Positions 21,101 to 33,100 of a stretch of 64,000 nucleotides of DNA are shown here, one piece after another. The stretch is from NCBI RefSeq assembly GCF_056746865.1, contig NZ_CM163382.1. The stretch is one strand, 5' to 3'. How positions within the stretch are numbered: the first letter of the stretch is position 1; every line of letters starts with the position of its first letter. The position numbers are program-made.

Positions 21101-24100
21101 GGCAAGGGGCTGAACAGTTCACGTTATGGACTGGCAAAGATTTCCCTCTGGAATATGTTAAACAGGTCATGGGGTTCGGTGCCTGACAGGCTGACCGCGT
21201 GCAGAAAGGGTAAAAAATGAAAACCGTAACTGTAAAAGATCTCGTCATTGGTACGGGCGCACCTAAAATCATCGTCTCGCTGATGGCGAAAGATATCGCC
21301 AGCGTGAAATCTGAAGCTCTCGCCTATCGTGAAGCGGACTTTGATATTCTGGAATGGCGTGTTGACCACTATGCCGACCTCTCCAATGTGGATTCTGTCA
21401 TGGCGGCGGCAAAAATTCTCCGTAAAACCATGCCAGAAAAACCGCTGCTGTTTACCTTCCGCAGTGCCAAAGAAGGCGGCGAGCAGGCGATTTCCACCGA
21501 GGCTTATATTGCACTCAATCGTGCAGCCATCGACAGCGGCCTGGTTGATATGATCGATCTGGAGTTATTTACCGGCGATGATCAGGTTAAAGAAACCGTC
21601 GCCTACGCCCACGCGCATGATGTGAAAGTTGTCATGTCCAACCATGACTTCCATAAAACGCCGGAAGCCGAAGAAATCATTGCCCGTCTGCGCAAAATGC
21701 AGTCCTTCGACGCCGATATTCCTAAGATTGCGCTGATGCCGCAAAGTACCAGCGATGTGCTGACGTTGCTTGCCGCGACCCTGGAGATGCAGGAGCAGTA
21801 TGCCGATCGTCCAATCATCACGATGTCAATGGCAAAAACTGGCGTAATTTCTCGTCTGGCTGGTGAAGTATTTGGCTCGGCGGCAACTTTTGGTGCGGTA
21901 AAAAAGGCCTCTGCACCAGGGCAAATCTCGGTAAATGATTTGCGCACGGTATTAACTATTTTACACCAGGCATAAGCAATAATATTTCGGCGGGAACATC
22001 CTCCCCCGCCGAACTAAAAAAATATATTTAACCGTATTTAATAAAAATATTTCGTGAGTCTCTGTGCGCTAATTCTCCATCTGGCGTAGGGAAAATCACA
22101 CCTGAATCAGGAATTAACAATGAAACCTGTAAAACCACCTCGTATTAATGGACGAGTGCCGGTCCTGTCGGCACAGGAAGCGGTGAATTATATTCCCGAC
22201 GAAGCAACACTTTGTGTGTTAGGCGCTGGCGGCGGTATTCTGGAAGCCACCACGTTAATTACAGCTCTTGCTGATAAATATAAACAGACTCAAACGCCAC
22301 GTAATTTATCGATTATTAGTCCGACAGGGCTTGGCGATCGCGCCGACCGTGGTATTAGTCCGCTGGCGCAAGAAGGTCTGGTGAAATGGGCATTATGCGG
22401 TCACTGGGGACAATCGCCGCGTATTTCTGATCTCGCAGAACAAAATAAAATTATTGCTTATAACTATCCACAAGGTGTACTTACACAAACCTTACGCGCC
22501 GCCGCAGCCCACCAGCCTGGTATTATTAGTGATATTGGCATCGGAACATTTGTCGATCCACGCCAGCAAGGCGGCAAACTGAATGAAGTCACTAAAGAAG
22601 ACCTGATTAAACTGGTCGAGTTTGAAAACAAAGAATATCTCTATTACAAAGCGATAGCGCCAGATATTGCCTTCATTCGCGCTACCACCTGCGACAGCGA
22701 AGGCTACGCCACTTTTGAAGATGAGGTGATGTATCTCGACGCATTGGTTATTGCCCAGGCGGTGCACAATAACGGCGGTATTGTGATGATGCAGGTGCAG
22801 AAAATGGTTAAGAAAGCCACGCTGCATCCTAAATCTGTCCGTATTCCGGGTTATCTGGTGGATATTGTGGTGGTCGATCCGGATCAAACCCAACTGTATG
22901 GCGGTGCGCCGGTTAACCGCTTTATTTCTGGTGACTTCACCCTTGATGACAGCACCAAACTTAGCCTGCCCCTAAACCAACGTAAATTAGTTGCACGGCG
23001 CGCATTATTCGAAATGCGTAAAGGCGCGGTGGGGAATGTCGGCGTCGGTATTGCTGACGGCATTGGCCTGGTCGCCCGGGAAGAAGGTTGTGCTGATGAC
23101 TTTATTCTGACGGTAGAAACAGGTCCGATTGGCGGAATTACTTCACAGGGTATCGCCTTTGGCGCGAACGTGAATACCCGCGCCATTCTGGATATGACGT
23201 CCCAGTTTGATTTTTATCACGGTGGTGGTCTGGATGTTTGTTATTTGAGTTTTGCTGAAGTCGACCAGCACGGTAACGTCGGCGTGCATAAATTCAATGG
23301 CAAAATCATGGGCACCGGTGGATTTATTGATATCAGTGCCACTTCGAAGAAAATCGTTTTCTGCGGCACATTAACTGCGGGCAGTTTAAAAACAGAAATT
23401 ACCGACGGCAAATTAAATATCGTCCAGGAAGGACGGGTGAAGAAATTTATTCGGGAACTACCGGAAATTACTTTCAGCGGAAAAATCGCTCTCGAGCGAG
23501 GGCTGGATGTTCGTTATATCACTGAGCGCGCAGTATTCACACTGAAAGAAGACGGCCTGCATTTAATCGAAATCGCCCCTGGCGTCGATTTACAAAAAGA
23601 TATTCTCGACAAAATGGATTTCACCCCAGTGATTTCGCCAGAACTCAAACTGATGGACGAAAGATTATTTATCGATGCGGCGATGGGTTTTGTCCTGCCT
23701 GAAGCGGCTCATTAACAGGAGTATCACGATGGATTTTTCTTTAACTGAAGAACAAGAACTGCTGCTGGCCAGTATTCGCGAACTGATTACGACTAACTTT
23801 CCGGAAGAGTATTTCCGCACCTGCGATCAAAACGGGACATACCCGCGTGAATTTATGCGGGCACTGGCGGATAACGGTATTTCCATGCTTGGCGTGCCGG
23901 AAGAATTTGGTGGTATCCCTGCGGATTACGTCACCCAAATGCTGGCGCTGATGGAAGTGTCAAAATGCGGTGCCCCGGCATTTTTGATCACCAACGGTCA
24001 ATGTATTCACAGTATGCGCCGTTTCGGTTCTGCAGAGCAGCTACGTAAAACGGCGGAAAGCACCCTGGAAACGGGTGATCCCGCCTATGCCCTGGCATTG

Positions 24101-30100: not shown

Positions 30101-33100
30101 ACCACGGCGATAACGGTCCACGGCGATGAATTAGCCGCGGTGCTGTTTACCTCCGGAACCGAGGGTCTGCCAAAGGGCGTGATGCTAACGCATAACAATA
30201 TTCTCGCCAGTGAGCGGGCTTATTGCGCGCGGTTGAATCTGACCTGGCAGGATGTCTTTATGATGCCTGCGCCACTTGGTCATGCAACGGGCTTTCTGCA
30301 TGGCGTAACGGCACCATTCTTAATTGGCGCTCGCAGCGTGTTGTTAGATATTTTCACTCCTGATGCGTGTCTCGCGCTGCTTGAGCAGCAGCGTTGCACC
30401 TGTATGCTCGGCGCAACGCCGTTTGTCTATGATCTTTTGAATTTACTGGAGAAACAACCCGCTGACCTTTCAGCGCTGCGCTTCTTTCTTTGCGGCGGGA
30501 CCACAATCCCCAAAAAAGTGGCGCGTGAATGCCAGCAGCGCGGCATTAAATTATTAAGTGTTTATGGTTCCACAGAAAGTTCGCCGCACGCAGTGGTGAA
30601 TCTCGACGATCCTTTGTCGCGCTTTATGCACACCGATGGTTACGCTGCCGCAGGTGTTGAGATTAAAGTGGTCGATGACGCACGCAAGACCTTACCGCCA
30701 GGTTGCGAAGGTGAAGAAGCCTCGCGTGGCCCCAATGTGTTTATGGGGTATTTTGATGAACCTGAATTAACCGCCCGTGCCCTGGATGAAGAAGGCTGGT
30801 ATTACAGCGGCGATCTCTGCTGCATGGATGAGGCCGGCTATATAAAAATAACCGGGCGCAAGAAAGATATTATTGTCCGCGGCGGCGAAAATATTAGCAG
30901 CCGTGAAGTAGAAGATATTTTATTGCAGCATCCTAAAATTCACGATGCCTGTGTGGTTGCGATGCCCGATGAACGTTTAGGTGAACGCTCATGCGCTTAT
31001 GTCGTGCTGAAAGCACCGCATCATTCATTATCGCTGGAAGAGGTGGTGGCTTTTTTTAGCCGTAAACGGGTCGCGAAATATAAATATCCTGAACATATCG
31101 TGGTAATCGAAAAACTACCGCGCACTGCCTCAGGTAAAATACAAAAGTTTTTGTTAAGGAAAGATATTATGCGGAGATTAACTCAGGATGTCTGTGAAGA
31201 GATTGAATAAGTTTCATCTTCGGGGATCACATAAACCCGGCGACTGAACGCCGCCGGGGATTTATTTTATTTCTTCAGTTCAGCCAGGCTTAACCAGGTT
31301 TGCACCACGGTATCCGGGTTCAGAGACAGGCTATCGATCCCTTCTTCCATCAACCATGCGGCAAAGTCTTCGTGGTCGGACGGGCCCTGACCGCAAATCC
31401 CGACATATTTGCCCTGTTTCTTCGCGGCACGAATCGCCATCGACAGCAGTGCTTTCACCGCATCGTTGCGCTCATCGAACAGTTCAGACACCACTCCGGA
31501 GTCACGGTCCAGACCGAGCGCCAGCTGTGTCATGTCGTTTGAGCCAATTGAGAAGCCGTCGAAATATTCGAGGAACTGCTCTGCCAGCAAGGCGTTGGAC
31601 GGAATTTCACACATCATGATGATTTTCAGCCCGTTCTCACCACGTTTCAGCCCCTGACGCGCCAATTCGTCAACCACCGCTTTCGCCTGATCTACGGTAC
31701 GCACGAACGGGATCATGATCTCAACGTTGGTCAGTCCCATGTCGTTGCGCACACGTTTCACTGCTTCACACTCCAGCGCAAAGCAGTCGCGGAAGCTGTC
31801 GGAAACATAGCGGCCCGCGCCACGGAAGCCGAGCATCGGGTTCTCTTCATCTGGCTCGTAACGCTCACCACCGACCAGGTTGGCATATTCGTTCGATTTA
31901 AAATCAGAGAGACGGACAATGACGCGCTTCGGATAAAACGCGGCACCCAGCGTCGCGATCCCTTCAGTCAGACGCCCAACGTAAAATTCACGCGGAGAAT
32001 CAAAACCTTTCATCATCTCGCGGATTTCGTTTTGCAACTGCGGTTCCTGATCGTCAAACTCAAGCAGTGCGCGTGGGTGGACGCCAATCATACGGTTGAT
32101 GATAAATTCCAGACGCGCAAGGCCCACGCCTTCGTTCGGCAGGCAGGCGAAGTCGAAAGCACGGTCCGGGTTACCGACGTTCATCATCACCTTCAACGGC
32201 AGATCAGGCATCGTTTCTACGCTGGAGCTTTTCACGCTAAATTCCAGCAACTCCGCATAGACGTAACCGGTATCACCTTCGGCACAAGAAACAGTGACGT
32301 TCTCACCGTCTTTCATCCGTTCTGTTGCATCACCACAGCCCACTACCGCCGGAATGCCGAGTTCACGAGCGATGATCGCCGCGTGACAGGTACGACCGCC
32401 ACGATTGGTGACGATGGCAGATGCCTTCTTCATGATCGGTTCCCAGTCCGGGTCGGTCATGTCAGTAACCAGCACGTCGCCAGGTTCGATGCGGTTCATT
32501 TCGCTGATGTCATGGATGACTTTCACCGGACCCGCGCCGATGCGATGACCGATAGCACGGCCTTCGGCGATAATCTTACCCTGTGAATGCAGCGTATAAC
32601 GCTCCATGATCTGACCGCGTGAGCGCACGGTTTCCGGACGCGCCTGCACAATGAACAGTTTACCGGTGTGGCCATCTTTCGCCCACTCAATATCCATTGG
32701 GCGACCGTAGTGTTTCTCAATTTGTACGGCCTGTTTTGCAAGTTCCTGCACTTCTTCGTTGGTCAGCGAGAAGATGTCACGCTGTTCCTGCGGTACGTCT
32801 TCGATTTTAACCTGCTTGCCGTGCTCCTGGGTCGGCGCGTAAACCATGCGGATTTTTTTCGACCCCATGGTGCGGCGCACGATAGCCGGGCGATTCGCCG
32901 CCAGTGTCGGTTTGTGCACGTAAAACTCATCCGGGTTAACCGCACCCTGCACGACCATTTCACCAAGGCCCCATGCGGAAGTGATAAACACCACCTGGTC
33001 AAAGCCGGATTCGGTATCAATGGAGAACATCACGCCAGAAGATGCGAGGTCGGAGCGCACCATCCGCTGAACACCGGCGGAGAGCGCCACGCCACGGTGA

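What the first reader, a model, noticed from the sequence alone, without database searches (positions are those of the whole stretch)
22120..31210. ydiF-ydiO / ydiP / ydiQRST-fadK: an ETF-linked acyl-CoA module with its own AraC-type regulator
The cluster combines a CoA-transferase (YdiF), an acyl-CoA dehydrogenase-family enzyme (YdiO), ETF beta and alpha homologs (YdiQ, YdiR), a FixC-like flavoprotein oxidoreductase (YdiS), a FixX-like ferredoxin (YdiT) and a short-chain acyl-CoA synthetase (FadK), with a divergently oriented AraC-family regulator (YdiP). The architecture parallels fixABCX, which points to electron-bifurcating or quinone-coupled acyl-CoA/enoyl-CoA redox chemistry. The anaerobic fatty-acid role of fadK is published, but the substrate and inducing signal of the whole unit remain only partly resolved to my knowledge. 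ydiS-ydiT overlap by 4 bp and ydiT is followed directly by fadK, suggesting tight translational coupling.
Basis: partly seen in the sequence, partly recalled or inferred. Interest (0 to 1): 0.4.

Follow-up and report, generated by a model that had tools for sequence, protein, structure and literature searches.

The report
Known E. coli ydi acyl-CoA cluster
This is the already-described ydi gene cluster of E. coli, a set of flavoproteins built like the carnitine system that reduces or oxidises an acid bound to coenzyme A. Comparison with other bacteria suggests its natural substrate is plant-derived quinate/shikimate rather than fatty acids.

Summary
The window is E. coli chromosome. All eight genes (not nine) are intact at the stated coordinates: ydiF, ydiO, ydiP (opposite strand), ydiQRST and fadK. 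The 4-bp ydiS/ydiT overlap is real. The "direct" ydiT-fadK junction depends on an unconserved upstream ATG; the conserved start is 56 nt downstream, past a hairpin.

The parallel with caiA/fixABCX holds: YdiO is 48% identical to CaiA, and YdiQRST are 44-63% identical to FixABCX. The locus is already published as an anaerobic beta-oxidation/enoyl-CoA reductase module, so the object is not new.

In 39 of 39 species, ydiO sits directly after ydiN-ydiB-aroD-ydiF (MFS transporter, quinate/shikimate dehydrogenase, dehydroquinase, CoA transferase). The link recurs in rearranged form in Sutterella and two metagenome contigs, one with aroD between the ETF and fixC genes. The ydiN and ydiQ promoters share a triple direct repeat, TGCAAKAT at x, x+21 and x+94. 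That arrangement occurs nowhere else in 1 Mb of related loci, so one AraC-type regulator, presumably YdiP, probably controls both.

My best reading (about 0.5) is a cai/fix-like CoA loop that reduces quinate-derived shikimate. This is untested biochemically. The fatty-acid reading remains a serious rival.

The parts
18817..18919 (+). Triple direct repeat upstream of ydiN: TGCAATATT at 18817, TGCAAGATC at 18838, TGCAATATT at 18911 (spacing 21 and 73 bp). Candidate AraC-type (YdiP) operator.
19043..20308 (+). ydiN, an MFS transporter.
   Evidence: literature
20320..21186 (+). ydiB, NAD(P)-dependent quinate/shikimate dehydrogenase.
   Evidence: NF009390, 667 bits
21217..21975 (+). aroD, type I 3-dehydroquinate dehydratase.
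21986..22013 (+). Conserved GC-rich hairpin after aroD with no U-tract on the + strand. Likely a partial terminator or 3'-end stabiliser.
   Evidence: -17.5 kcal/mol, z -3.8
22120..23715 (+). ydiF, a fused family-I CoA transferase. Crystal structures 2AHU, 2AHV and 2AHW exist.
23729..24880 (+). ydiO, an acyl-CoA dehydrogenase-family enzyme 48% identical to CaiA. Gly362 sits at the MCAD Glu376 position and Glu241 at the IVD/LCAD base position.
24878..24925 (.). Bidirectional hairpin terminator between the convergent genes ydiO and ydiP.
   Evidence: -23 kcal/mol, z -4.7
24923..25834 (-). ydiP, an AraC-family regulator with an N-terminal cupin domain and C-terminal HTH_18.
25686..25699 (+). FNR-like site TTGACGTAAATCAA reported by ChIP-chip. 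It lies inside the ydiP coding sequence and is not conserved outside E. coli.
25930..26032 (+). Triple direct repeat in the ydiP-ydiQ intergenic region: AACAAGATT at 25930, TGCAAGATT at 25951, TGCAAGATT at 26024. Same 21 and 73 bp spacing as upstream of ydiN.
26150..26914 (+). ydiQ, ETF beta-type subunit, 54% identical to FixA.
26934..27872 (+). ydiR, ETF alpha-type subunit, 44% identical to FixB.
27928..29217 (+). ydiS, FixC/ETF-QO-like flavoprotein with a quinone-binding domain. Its closest solved relative is 7KOE chain C.
29214..29507 (+). ydiT, FixX-like ferredoxin with five Cys including CxxCxxCxxxC. Overlaps ydiS by 4 bp.
29520..29540 (+). Hairpin between ydiT and the conserved fadK start.
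   Evidence: -17.7 kcal/mol, z -2.1
29564..31210 (+). fadK, an acyl-CoA ligase of 548 aa from the conserved start. The longest ORF starts at 29510.

Best explanation
The interval is the known E. coli ydi locus. It encodes a cytoplasmic flavoprotein chain that acts on a CoA thioester and is built like the carnitine system (cai/fix).

Proposed roles:
- YdiF (CoA transferase), primed by FadK (CoA ligase), puts a carboxylic acid on CoA.
- YdiO, a CaiA-like acyl-CoA dehydrogenase-family enzyme, reduces the alpha,beta double bond.
- The ETF YdiQR, with the FixC-like quinone-linked flavoprotein YdiS and the FixX-like ferredoxin YdiT, supplies the electrons from the quinol/NADH pool.

The module is not self-contained. 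It is the downstream part of a conserved block that starts with the MFS transporter ydiN, the quinate/shikimate dehydrogenase ydiB and the dehydroquinase aroD. The ydiN and ydiQ promoters carry the same triple direct repeat, so one AraC-type regulator, most simply YdiP, probably switches both on.

Most likely pathway:
1. Quinate is converted to 3-dehydroquinate (YdiB).
2. 3-Dehydroquinate is converted to 3-dehydroshikimate (AroD).
3. 3-Dehydroshikimate is converted to shikimate (YdiB).
4. Shikimate is converted to shikimoyl-CoA (YdiF/FadK).
5. Shikimoyl-CoA is reduced to dihydroshikimoyl-CoA (YdiO with YdiQRST).
6. CoA is passed to the next substrate molecule.

In this scheme a dietary hydroaromatic acid serves as an electron sink.

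Shown here: gene content, homologies, synteny and the shared repeat. Inferred: the substrate, the direction of electron flow, and YdiP as the protein that binds the repeats.
For: 1. Homology to cai/fix: YdiO is 48% identical to CaiA. YdiQ/R/S/T are 54/44/62/63% identical to FixA/B/C/X, and FadK is 29% identical to CaiC. YdiS has an ETF-QO quinone-binding domain and is closest to FixC of the solved EtfABCX complex 7KOE.

2. Synteny: 39 of 39 loci with a YdiO ortholog of at least 80% identity and enough flank have ydiN-ydiB-aroD-ydiF directly upstream. They span Escherichia, Citrobacter, Kosakonia, Yersinia, Serratia, Dickeya, Brenneria and others, with different outer flanks.

3. Independent rearrangements keep the link:
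- Sutterella: ligase-ydiTSRQ divergent from MFS-SDH-DHQase-ydiF-ydiO.
- Contig L056: MFS-ydiF-ydiO-etfB-etfA-DHquinase_I-fixC-fixX-ligase.
- Contig L058: shikimate kinase, a YdiP-like AraC regulator, ydiB and aroD lead into the ACAD/ETF/ligase genes and ydiF-ydiO.

4. Shared operator: CAANAT at x, x+21 and x+94/95 occurs 37 times in 1.0 Mb of loci, only upstream of ydiN and of ydiQ, always on the coding strand. The 21-bp pair persists in Yersinia, Dickeya, Serratia, Brenneria and Sutterella.

5. Expression: ydiQ, ydiR, ydiS and ydiT rise 20-32-fold in a shikimate-overproducing strain (PMC4015609). ydiN, ydiB and aroD are induced in another such strain (PMC4585142).

6. Physiology: Sutterella wadsworthensis, which carries the block, grows by reducing the enoate bond of shikimate to hydroshikimate (bioRxiv 10.1101/2022.12.26.521950).

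7. Enzyme hints: YdiO and CaiA have Gly at the MCAD Glu376 position and Glu at the IVD/LCAD base position. FadK's best curated non-self family is cyclohexanecarboxylate-CoA ligase (420 bits, below cutoff).

8. YdiM/YdiN-family transporters sit next to shikimate-pathway genes in 75-86% of cases (PMC10588857).
Against: - No biochemical or genetic test with quinate or shikimate exists for any of these proteins.
- Published work assigns the genes to fatty acids. FadK is most active on C6-C8 acids in vitro, and a fadD fadK double mutant cannot use fatty acids (as reviewed in PMC9329746). [quoted passage not shown]
- aroD is also the housekeeping biosynthetic dehydroquinase of E. coli, so its position could be historical. 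Within Enterobacterales the synteny is inherited, not independent.
- In Eggerthella lenta shikimate induces a single flavin reductase of an unrelated family, and a later preprint lists a shikimate reductase in that family. Sutterella has many such enzymes and could use one instead.
- YdiP ChIP-exo in glucose medium found five sites (sdhC, uxaB, secG, cspA, yihQ), none at the ydi promoters. Another study renames YdiP CsiP, a cold-shock regulator.
- Homologs at 63-68% identity keep the ACAD/ETF/FixCX/ligase core without any hydroaromatic gene.
- No repeat of this kind lies upstream of ydiF.
Confidence: 0.5

Rival explanations
1. [quoted passage not shown] Electrons pass from acyl-CoA through ETF and YdiS to quinone. 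The neighbouring ydiN-ydiB-aroD genes are unrelated.
For: A fadD fadK double mutant cannot use fatty acids, and FadK is active on C6-C8 acids (reviewed in PMC9329746). Gulevich et al. 2016 and reversed beta-oxidation engineering use ydiO/ydiQRST on straight-chain enoyl-CoAs. A Salmonella comparative study lists ydiFO, ydiQRST and fadHIJK as anaerobic beta-oxidation genes. YdiO has all three ACAD domains.
Against: - The 2022 review says experimental evidence for YdiQR in fatty-acid growth is lacking, anaerobic induction of fadK was not reproduced in transcriptomes, and there is no evidence for FadR or CRP control of fadK.
- No thiolase, hydratase or 3-hydroxyacyl-CoA dehydrogenase gene is in the block in any of 39 species.
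- The closest characterised relative of YdiO is the reductase CaiA, not FadE.
- The link to a dehydroquinase and shikimate dehydrogenase survives horizontal transfer and rearrangement.
- The shared operator ties ydiQRST to ydiN-ydiB-aroD.
Confidence: 0.22
2. Same enzymes and the same hydroaromatic link, but run in the oxidative direction. Reduced alicyclic acids made by other gut bacteria (dihydroshikimate, cyclohexanecarboxylates) are imported, put on CoA and dehydrogenated by YdiO. Electrons go through ETF and YdiS to quinone, and the resulting shikimate or dehydroshikimate feeds aromatic biosynthesis or respiration.
For: YdiS resembles ETF:quinone oxidoreductase, which normally accepts electrons from ETF. 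ACAD enzymes are reversible in principle. aroD and ydiB connect directly to the biosynthetic pathway. NCBIfam shows distant similarity of YdiO and FadK to the cyclohexanecarboxyl-CoA dehydrogenase and ligase of a degradative pathway. Hydroshikimate is produced by gut bacteria.
Against: The closest characterised homologs (CaiA with FixABCX) work reductively; the literature cites fixAB as required for carnitine reduction. Sutterella carrying the block consumes shikimate as an acceptor. Sequence alone cannot give direction.
Confidence: 0.13
3. The module is a cai/fix-like reductase loop for some other small enoate (for example crotonate, acrylate or a cinnamate). Its adjacency and shared repeats with ydiN-ydiB-aroD reflect common regulation by a global condition rather than a common pathway.
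For: Homologous clusters in Desulfovibrio, a Pectobacteriaceae strain and E. albertii lack hydroaromatic genes. The YdiF structure was deposited only as 'putative enzyme ydiF'. From my own memory, not checked here, its reported substrates are short acyl-CoAs. After CaiA, the next-best curated family for YdiO is acryloyl-CoA reductase.
Against: Those clusters use a different (CaiB-type) CoA transferase and contain YdiO paralogs of only 63-68% identity. Every YdiF-plus-YdiO ortholog pair examined is next to a type I dehydroquinase. In one contig the dehydroquinase gene lies inside the ETF/FixCX operon.
Confidence: 0.15

Closest known systems
E. coli carnitine system caiTABCDE / fixABCX / caiF
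   Same: It has the same parts list: transporter, CoA transferase, priming CoA ligase, ACAD-type enoyl-CoA reductase, ETF beta/alpha, FixC and FixX, a (de)hydratase step and a dedicated regulator. YdiO is 48% identical to CaiA; YdiQRST are 44-63% identical to FixABCX; FadK is 29% identical to CaiC. The fixC/fixX-type 4-bp overlap is also present.
   Different: The CoA transferase is family I (YdiF) rather than family III (CaiB). The dehydration step would be done on the free acid by AroD, not by a crotonase on the CoA ester. The regulator is AraC-type rather than CaiF. The substrate is not carnitine.
Caffeate respiration CarABCDE of Acetobacterium woodii (and Bcd/EtfAB, acryloyl-CoA reductase)
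   Same: The logic is the same: a CoA-transferase loop with a priming ligase, an ACAD-type reductase and an ETF. CarD and CarE (6FAH) are among the closest solved relatives of YdiQ and YdiR, and CarC is a hit for YdiO.
   Different: Car has no FixC/FixX and bifurcates electrons to ferredoxin. The ydi system has a quinone-linked FixC-like subunit. Whether YdiQR carries the second, bifurcating FAD was not testable here.
FixABCX / EtfABCX bifurcating complexes (Thermotoga maritima 7KOE; diazotroph FixABCX)
   Same: It has four subunits in the same gene order. YdiS matches 7KOE chain C at E 5e-70.
   Different: Those complexes deliver electrons to ferredoxin or flavodoxin and quinone. Here an ACAD partner (YdiO) is encoded alongside, as with CaiA.
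Flavin-type (UrdA-like) shikimate-induced reductase of Eggerthella lenta
   Same: The proposed net reaction is the same: shikimate enoate to hydroshikimate, used as an electron acceptor by gut bacteria.
   Different: It belongs to an unrelated protein family, most members of which carry a predicted signal peptide, and works without CoA esters. The ydi route would be cytoplasmic and CoA-dependent.
Cyclohexanecarboxylate pathway AliA/AliB (Rhodopseudomonas palustris) and relatives
   Same: It uses an alicyclic acid CoA ligase plus an ACAD acting on a ring CoA ester. FadK scores 420 bits on the AliA model, and YdiO scores 141-186 bits on the cyclohexane(carbox/carbon)yl-CoA dehydrogenase models.
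   Different: All these scores are far below the family cutoffs, so the ydi proteins are not members. That pathway is degradative and unhydroxylated.

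Membership tests
Acyl-CoA dehydrogenase (ACAD) family - YdiO | N-terminal, middle and C-terminal ACAD domains | tested here: met
   PF02771, PF02770 and PF00441 all score above their cutoffs.
Acyl-CoA dehydrogenase (ACAD) family - YdiO | Catalytic glutamate at the MCAD Glu376 position | tested here: not met
   Gly362 aligns with MCAD Glu376. Glu241 aligns with MCAD Thr255, the position of the base in IVD and LCAD. 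CaiA shows the same pattern.
CaiA (crotonobetainyl-CoA reductase) equivalog | Score above the NCBIfam cutoff for NF002885 | tested here: not met
   452 bits against a cutoff of 540. YdiO has its own equivalog, NF008997 (787 bits). It is a paralog, not a CaiA.
FixABCX / EtfABCX-type complex - YdiQRST | Four genes in the order ETF-beta, ETF-alpha, FixC-like flavoprotein, FixX-like ferredoxin | tested here: met
   identity to E. coli FixA/B/C/X is 54/44/62/63%.
FixABCX / EtfABCX-type complex - YdiQRST | Quinone-binding domain in the FixC subunit | tested here: met
   PF21162 ETFQO_UQ-bd, E 6e-9, 36.7 bits against a cutoff of 27.7; closest structure is 7KOE_C.
FixABCX / EtfABCX-type complex - YdiQRST | Iron-sulfur cysteines in the FixX subunit | tested here: met
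   YdiT has C45 plus C65-x2-C68-x2-C71-x3-C75. The FixX NCBIfam score is 144 bits, below the cutoff of 166.
FixABCX / EtfABCX-type complex - YdiQRST | Second (bifurcating) FAD in the ETF | not testable with these tools
   The closest solved relatives are bifurcating ETFs (6FAH, 5OL2, 7QH2, 7KOE), but by a modest margin over non-bifurcating ones. No cofactor data.
cai/fix-like CoA-loop enoate reduction system | Transporter, CoA transferase, priming ligase, ACAD reductase and ETF encoded together | tested here: met
   ydiN/ydiM, ydiF, fadK, ydiO and ydiQRST lie in one conserved block. The ligase follows fixX in Desulfovibrio, Pectobacteriaceae, Sutterella-type and L056 clusters too.
cai/fix-like CoA-loop enoate reduction system | Reductive turnover of the enoyl-CoA in vivo | not testable with these tools
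   Needs biochemistry.
fad (beta-oxidation) system | Companion hydratase/dehydrogenase/thiolase genes or FadR/ArcA/CRP control | tested here: not met
   No such genes are in the block in 39 species. The review reports no evidence for FadR or CRP control of fadK. Regulation was not tested by me.
AraC/XylS regulator with a local regulon - YdiP | C-terminal double HTH and N-terminal ligand-binding (cupin) domain | tested here: met
   PF12833, PF07883 and PF02311.
AraC/XylS regulator with a local regulon - YdiP | Direct repeats about two helical turns apart at adjacent promoters | tested here: met
   TGCAAKAT repeats at 21-bp spacing lie before ydiQ and ydiN and are conserved across genera.
AraC/XylS regulator with a local regulon - YdiP | YdiP binds these repeats | not tested
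   Published ChIP-exo in glucose medium lists no ydi site. The ligand may be required.

The most novel reading that the evidence does not exclude
The whole block ydiN-ydiB-aroD-ydiF-ydiO / ydiP / ydiQRST-fadK is a cytoplasmic, CoA-dependent pathway by which Enterobacterales and Sutterella use dietary quinate/shikimate as an electron acceptor. The ring double bond is reduced on the CoA ester by YdiO, with electrons from the quinol/NADH pool via YdiQRST. YdiP switches the pathway on through TGCAAKAT direct repeats. This would be a second, unrelated enzymatic route to the hydroshikimate made by gut bacteria. In genomes with extra ACADs (contig L058) it may be the entry to the long-known but genetically unassigned gut conversion of shikimate to cyclohexanecarboxylate.
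Probability: 0.4. Interest if true: 0.65.

Novelty: already known. Interest (0 to 1): 0.4.

Why it matters
The ydi genes are among the better-known poorly annotated E. coli genes. They are used in reversed beta-oxidation engineering and cited as gut-fitness genes lost in invasive Salmonella, yet a 2022 review still lists YdiQR as of unknown function.

If the hydroaromatic reading is right, several things follow:
- It gives these genes a native substrate and an inducer.
- It explains why E. coli keeps a second shikimate dehydrogenase (YdiB).
- It adds quinate/shikimate, abundant in plant food, to the electron acceptors of enterobacteria.
- It flags a hidden sink for shikimate in production strains.

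If it is wrong, the locus remains an ordinary, already-described paralog of cai/fix.

Tried and rejected
- FNR control: the published FNR site (25686-25699) lies inside ydiP and is absent from all other genera and even some Escherichia loci. I do not count it as part of the conserved mechanism.
- Sigma-70 promoter and terminator scan: no enrichment over shuffles (8 found against 11.6 expected; 16 against 11.2). Promoters are not assigned.
- A sigma-54 reading of TGG...GC after the promoter-proximal repeats: rejected by eye because the spacing is wrong. The published intragenic sigma-54 site in fadK is present only as a 2-mismatch variant at 29861-29874.
- The 566-aa FadK start (29510) and the longer ydiO (23675) and ydiQ (26051) ORFs: rejected, because alignments in all genera begin at the RefSeq starts.
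- YdiP-type repeats upstream of ydiF: none. That spacer has a hairpin and, in other genera, GAATATT palindromes instead.
- A ydiP remnant in the 1.4-kb Sutterella spacer: none found.
- YdiP targets in published ChIP data: no ydi gene appears in either study's held files.
- Literature search for a published link between ydiF/O/Q and shikimate, or for shikimoyl-CoA or shikimate respiration: nothing beyond the Sutterella/Eggerthella respiration paper.
- Rfam: only RprA, upstream of the unit.
- Structure prediction was not run. Folds are not in doubt and model coordinates cannot be inspected.

Full report
**Observation**

The 9,091 bases at 22120-31210 are 100% identical to many E. coli chromosomes. 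At least 80% of the stretch is present in 5346 of 5426 complete E. coli genomes. Annotation of an identical strain, the mechanical ORF list and Pfam/NCBIfam scans agree on eight intact genes:

| Gene | Coordinates | Strand | Product |
|---|---|---|---|
| ydiF | 22120-23715 | + | fused family-I CoA transferase; the protein has solved structures 2AHU/2AHV/2AHW |
| ydiO | 23729-24880 | + | three ACAD domains |
| ydiP | 24923-25834 | - | cupin plus AraC-type HTH |
| ydiQ | 26150-26914 | + | ETF beta type |
| ydiR | 26934-27872 | + | ETF alpha type |
| ydiS | 27928-29217 | + | FixC/ETF-QO-like, with a quinone-binding domain |
| ydiT | 29214-29507 | + | FixX-like, five cysteines |
| fadK | 29564-31210 | + | acyl-CoA ligase |

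The ATGA overlap of ydiS and ydiT is real and conserved. Three details in the finding need correcting.

- The interval holds eight genes, not nine.
- The 2-nt ydiT-fadK junction exists only for the longest ORF (ATG 29510). All other genera align from the RefSeq start at 29564, the spacer varies from 23 to 240 nt, and in E. coli it contains a hairpin. Tight coupling of fadK to ydiT is therefore not supported.
- ydiF-ydiO and ydiQRST-fadK are separate transcription units. They are divided by ydiP on the other strand and by a strong bidirectional hairpin at 24878-24925.

**What is already known**

The fix parallel is quantitatively sound.

- YdiO is 48% identical to CaiA over its full length.
- YdiQ/R/S/T are 54/44/62/63% identical to E. 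coli FixA/B/C/X, and FadK is 29% identical to CaiC.
- YdiS is closest to FixC of the solved EtfABCX complex 7KOE.
- YdiQ and YdiR are closest to bifurcating ETFs such as CarDE.

The locus has a literature.

- FadK is described as a short/medium-chain acyl-CoA synthetase, and ydiO/ydiQRST as the anaerobic acyl-CoA dehydrogenase complex. Both are used in reversed beta-oxidation.
- A Salmonella study lists the genes as anaerobic beta-oxidation functions lost in extraintestinal serovars.
- A 2022 review, however, states that YdiQR are of unknown function and evidence is lacking. It also says anaerobic induction of fadK was not reproduced and that there is no evidence for FadR or CRP control of fadK.
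- YdiP has been assigned to cold-shock control. ChIP-exo in glucose medium found five sites, none at the locus.

**The unit is larger than the finding**

I collected 45 loci encoding close YdiO relatives from one genome per species and mapped the E. coli proteins onto them.

- All 39 loci with a YdiO ortholog of at least 80% identity and enough flank have ydiN-ydiB-aroD-ydiF immediately upstream of ydiO.
- 38 of the 42 loci with such an ortholog also have ydiQRS, 39 have ydiP and 35 have fadK. The shortfalls are mostly loci cut by contig ends.
- The outer flanks differ. E. coli and Citrobacter have ppsA downstream, while Yersinia has cyanase genes and an extra LysR gene facing ydiN. The block from ydiN to fadK therefore travels as a unit.

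Within Enterobacterales this synteny is inherited. Three rearranged versions are more telling.

- **Sutterella** (a betaproteobacterium; YdiO 80-84% identical, likely horizontal transfer). ligase-ydiT-ydiS-ydiR-ydiQ lies on one strand and MFS-shikimate dehydrogenase-dehydroquinase-ydiF-ydiO on the other, with no ydiP.
- **Contig L056** (43% G+C). The order is MFS-ydiF-ydiO-etfB-etfA-DHquinase_I-fixC-fixX-ligase, so the dehydroquinase gene sits inside the electron-transfer operon.
- **Contig L058** (38% G+C). A shikimate kinase, a YdiP-like AraC gene, ydiB and aroD lead into ACAD/ETF/FixCX/ligase genes and end with ydiF-ydiO.

More distant YdiO homologs (63-68% identity) occur in Desulfovibrio, a Pectobacteriaceae strain and E. 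albertii. They keep the ACAD/ETF core without hydroaromatic genes and use a CaiB-type transferase. These presumably have another substrate.

**A shared operator**

Aligning the ydiP-ydiQ spacers showed three copies of CAAGAT(T/A). The ydiM-ydiN spacer has three copies of TGCAA(T/G)AT.

| Promoter | Repeat positions | Start codon | Repeat 3 to ATG |
|---|---|---|---|
| ydiN | 18817, 18838, 18911 | 19043 | 132 nt |
| ydiQ | 25930, 25951, 26024 | 26150 | 126 nt |

The spacing is 21 and 73 bp in both cases. A scan of 1.0 Mb of related loci, both strands, for CAANAT at x, x+20-22 and then +70-76 gave 37 hits. All lie in these two spacers and all are on the coding strand. The 21-bp pair is kept in both spacers in the Citrobacter freundii group, Yersinia, Dickeya, Serratia, Brenneria and Prodigiosinella, and in the Sutterella spacer.

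Direct repeats two helical turns apart are what AraC-family activators bind; that is established knowledge for AraC and relatives, not tested here. The simplest reading is that one such protein, with YdiP the adjacent candidate, co-regulates ydiN-ydiB-aroD and ydiQRST(-fadK). How ydiF-ydiO is driven is unclear. There is no such repeat before ydiF. The aroD 3' hairpin lacks a U-tract, so read-through from the ydiN promoter is possible.

**Independent experimental hints**

- In a shikimate-overproducing E. coli strain, ydiQ, ydiR, ydiS and ydiT were among the most induced genes, at 20-32-fold.
- In another such strain, ydiN, ydiB and aroD were induced under carbon limitation.
- YdiM/YdiN-type transporters neighbour shikimate-pathway genes in 75-86% of cases.
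- Sutterella wadsworthensis, whose type-strain genome carries the block (L043), grows with formate by reducing the enoate bond of shikimate to hydroshikimate. The enzyme was not named in the text I read.

Two sequence hints fit a bulky ring substrate.

- YdiO and CaiA have glycine where MCAD has its catalytic Glu376, and a glutamate at the position used by isovaleryl- and long-chain ACADs.
- FadK's best curated family after its own is cyclohexanecarboxylate-CoA ligase, although far below the cutoff.

**Most likely mechanism (confidence about 0.5)**

Quinate or shikimate enters, possibly through YdiN. YdiB and AroD interconvert quinate, dehydroquinate, dehydroshikimate and shikimate. FadK makes the first CoA ester, and YdiF then recycles CoA from product to substrate, as CaiC and CaiB do. 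YdiO reduces the ring C1=C2 bond of the thioester. Electrons come from quinol and/or NADH through YdiS/YdiT and the ETF YdiQR.

Shown here are the parts, their homologies, the conserved linkage and the common repeat. Inferred are the substrate, the direction, the electron donor and YdiP as the binder.

**Rivals**

- The fatty-acid beta-oxidation reading (0.22). It has direct but limited genetics behind it and does not explain the linkage.
- The same pathway run oxidatively to salvage reduced alicyclic acids (0.13).
- A cai-like loop for another enoate, with only regulatory linkage to ydiN-ydiB-aroD (0.15).

Against my own reading: there is no biochemistry. aroD is also the housekeeping dehydroquinase. 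In E. lenta shikimate induces an unrelated flavin reductase, which Sutterella might also have. YdiP ChIP data do not show the predicted sites.

**Comparison and novelty**

The system works like cai/fix and like caffeate respiration (CarABCDE), and its electron-transfer half is a FixABCX/EtfABCX relative. It is not a CaiA equivalog (452 bits against a cutoff of 540) and not a member of the cyclohexanecarboxylate families.

As a sequence feature it is already known. What is new here is the evidence that it belongs with ydiN-ydiB-aroD, the operator shared by two promoters, and a concrete substrate hypothesis that a few knockouts and an LC-MS assay could settle. Interest is moderate (0.4): ordinary as an object, but it makes an old open question directly testable.

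Noticed in passing
window 17155-18348 (inside ydiM, 16403-18816): A 1,194-bp insertion relative to other E. coli strains encodes a 338-aa IS5-family transposase (DDE_Tnp_1 + DUF772). It splits the MFS gene ydiM about 470 bp upstream of the ydiN repeats.
   Followed up: partly
window 15705-15812 (+): The sRNA gene rprA matches Rfam RF00034 at 118.5 bits. It lies between ydiK and ydiL, just upstream of the unit.
   Followed up: yes
window 22025-22050; aroD-ydiF spacers of L015, L019, L021, L026, L042: Two copies of the palindrome GAATATTC about 13 nt apart are conserved in Citrobacter and Kosakonia. In E. coli they are degenerate (CGTATTTA...AAATATTTCG). This may be an operator for a different regulator of ydiF-ydiO.
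   Followed up: no
L055 (E. albertii), L006/L007 (Pectobacteriaceae), L003-L005 (Desulfovibrio desulfuricans): A paralogous cluster holds a YdiO-like ACAD (63-68% identity), a second ACAD, an MFS transporter and ETF genes. Where the locus shows them it also has FixCX, a CaiB-type CoA transferase, a ligase and often a desulfoferrodoxin gene. No hydroaromatic genes are present and the substrate is unknown.
   Followed up: partly
L052 (E. coli strain E69) and L051 (Enterobacter sp. EA-1): These are natural losses. In E69, ydiF is followed by ppsA after 1.4 kb, so ydiO-fadK is missing. In EA-1 the block looks degraded, with no ydiP or ydiS hit and low identities.
   Followed up: no
L027-L035, L044, L050 (Yersinia, Brenneria, Dickeya, Serratia, Prodigiosinella, Symbiopectobacterium): About 1.5-1.9 kb of extra DNA lies between ydiM and ydiN. 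In Yersinia frederiksenii (L032, the one locus scanned) it holds a LysR-family regulator gene divergent from ydiN. The extra DNA is absent from E. coli.
   Followed up: partly
window 29861-29874 (-), inside fadK: This is a two-mismatch variant of the intragenic sigma-54 binding site mapped in K-12 fadK (GGTACGGAAACCGC against GGCACGGAAACTGC).
   Followed up: partly
window 41164-41177 (+): A second near-copy (CTGACGTAAATCAA) of the FNR-like sequence found in ydiP. Its context was not examined.
   Followed up: no
L043 3655-5018 and L039/L057 equivalents (Sutterella): The 1.4-kb spacer between ydiQ and ydiN has no ORF of 90 aa or more and no ydiP remnant. In L043 and L057 it still carries a 21-bp-spaced pair (GTGCAAGATAG / CTGCAATATAG) like the enterobacterial operator; no pair was found in L039.
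   Followed up: partly
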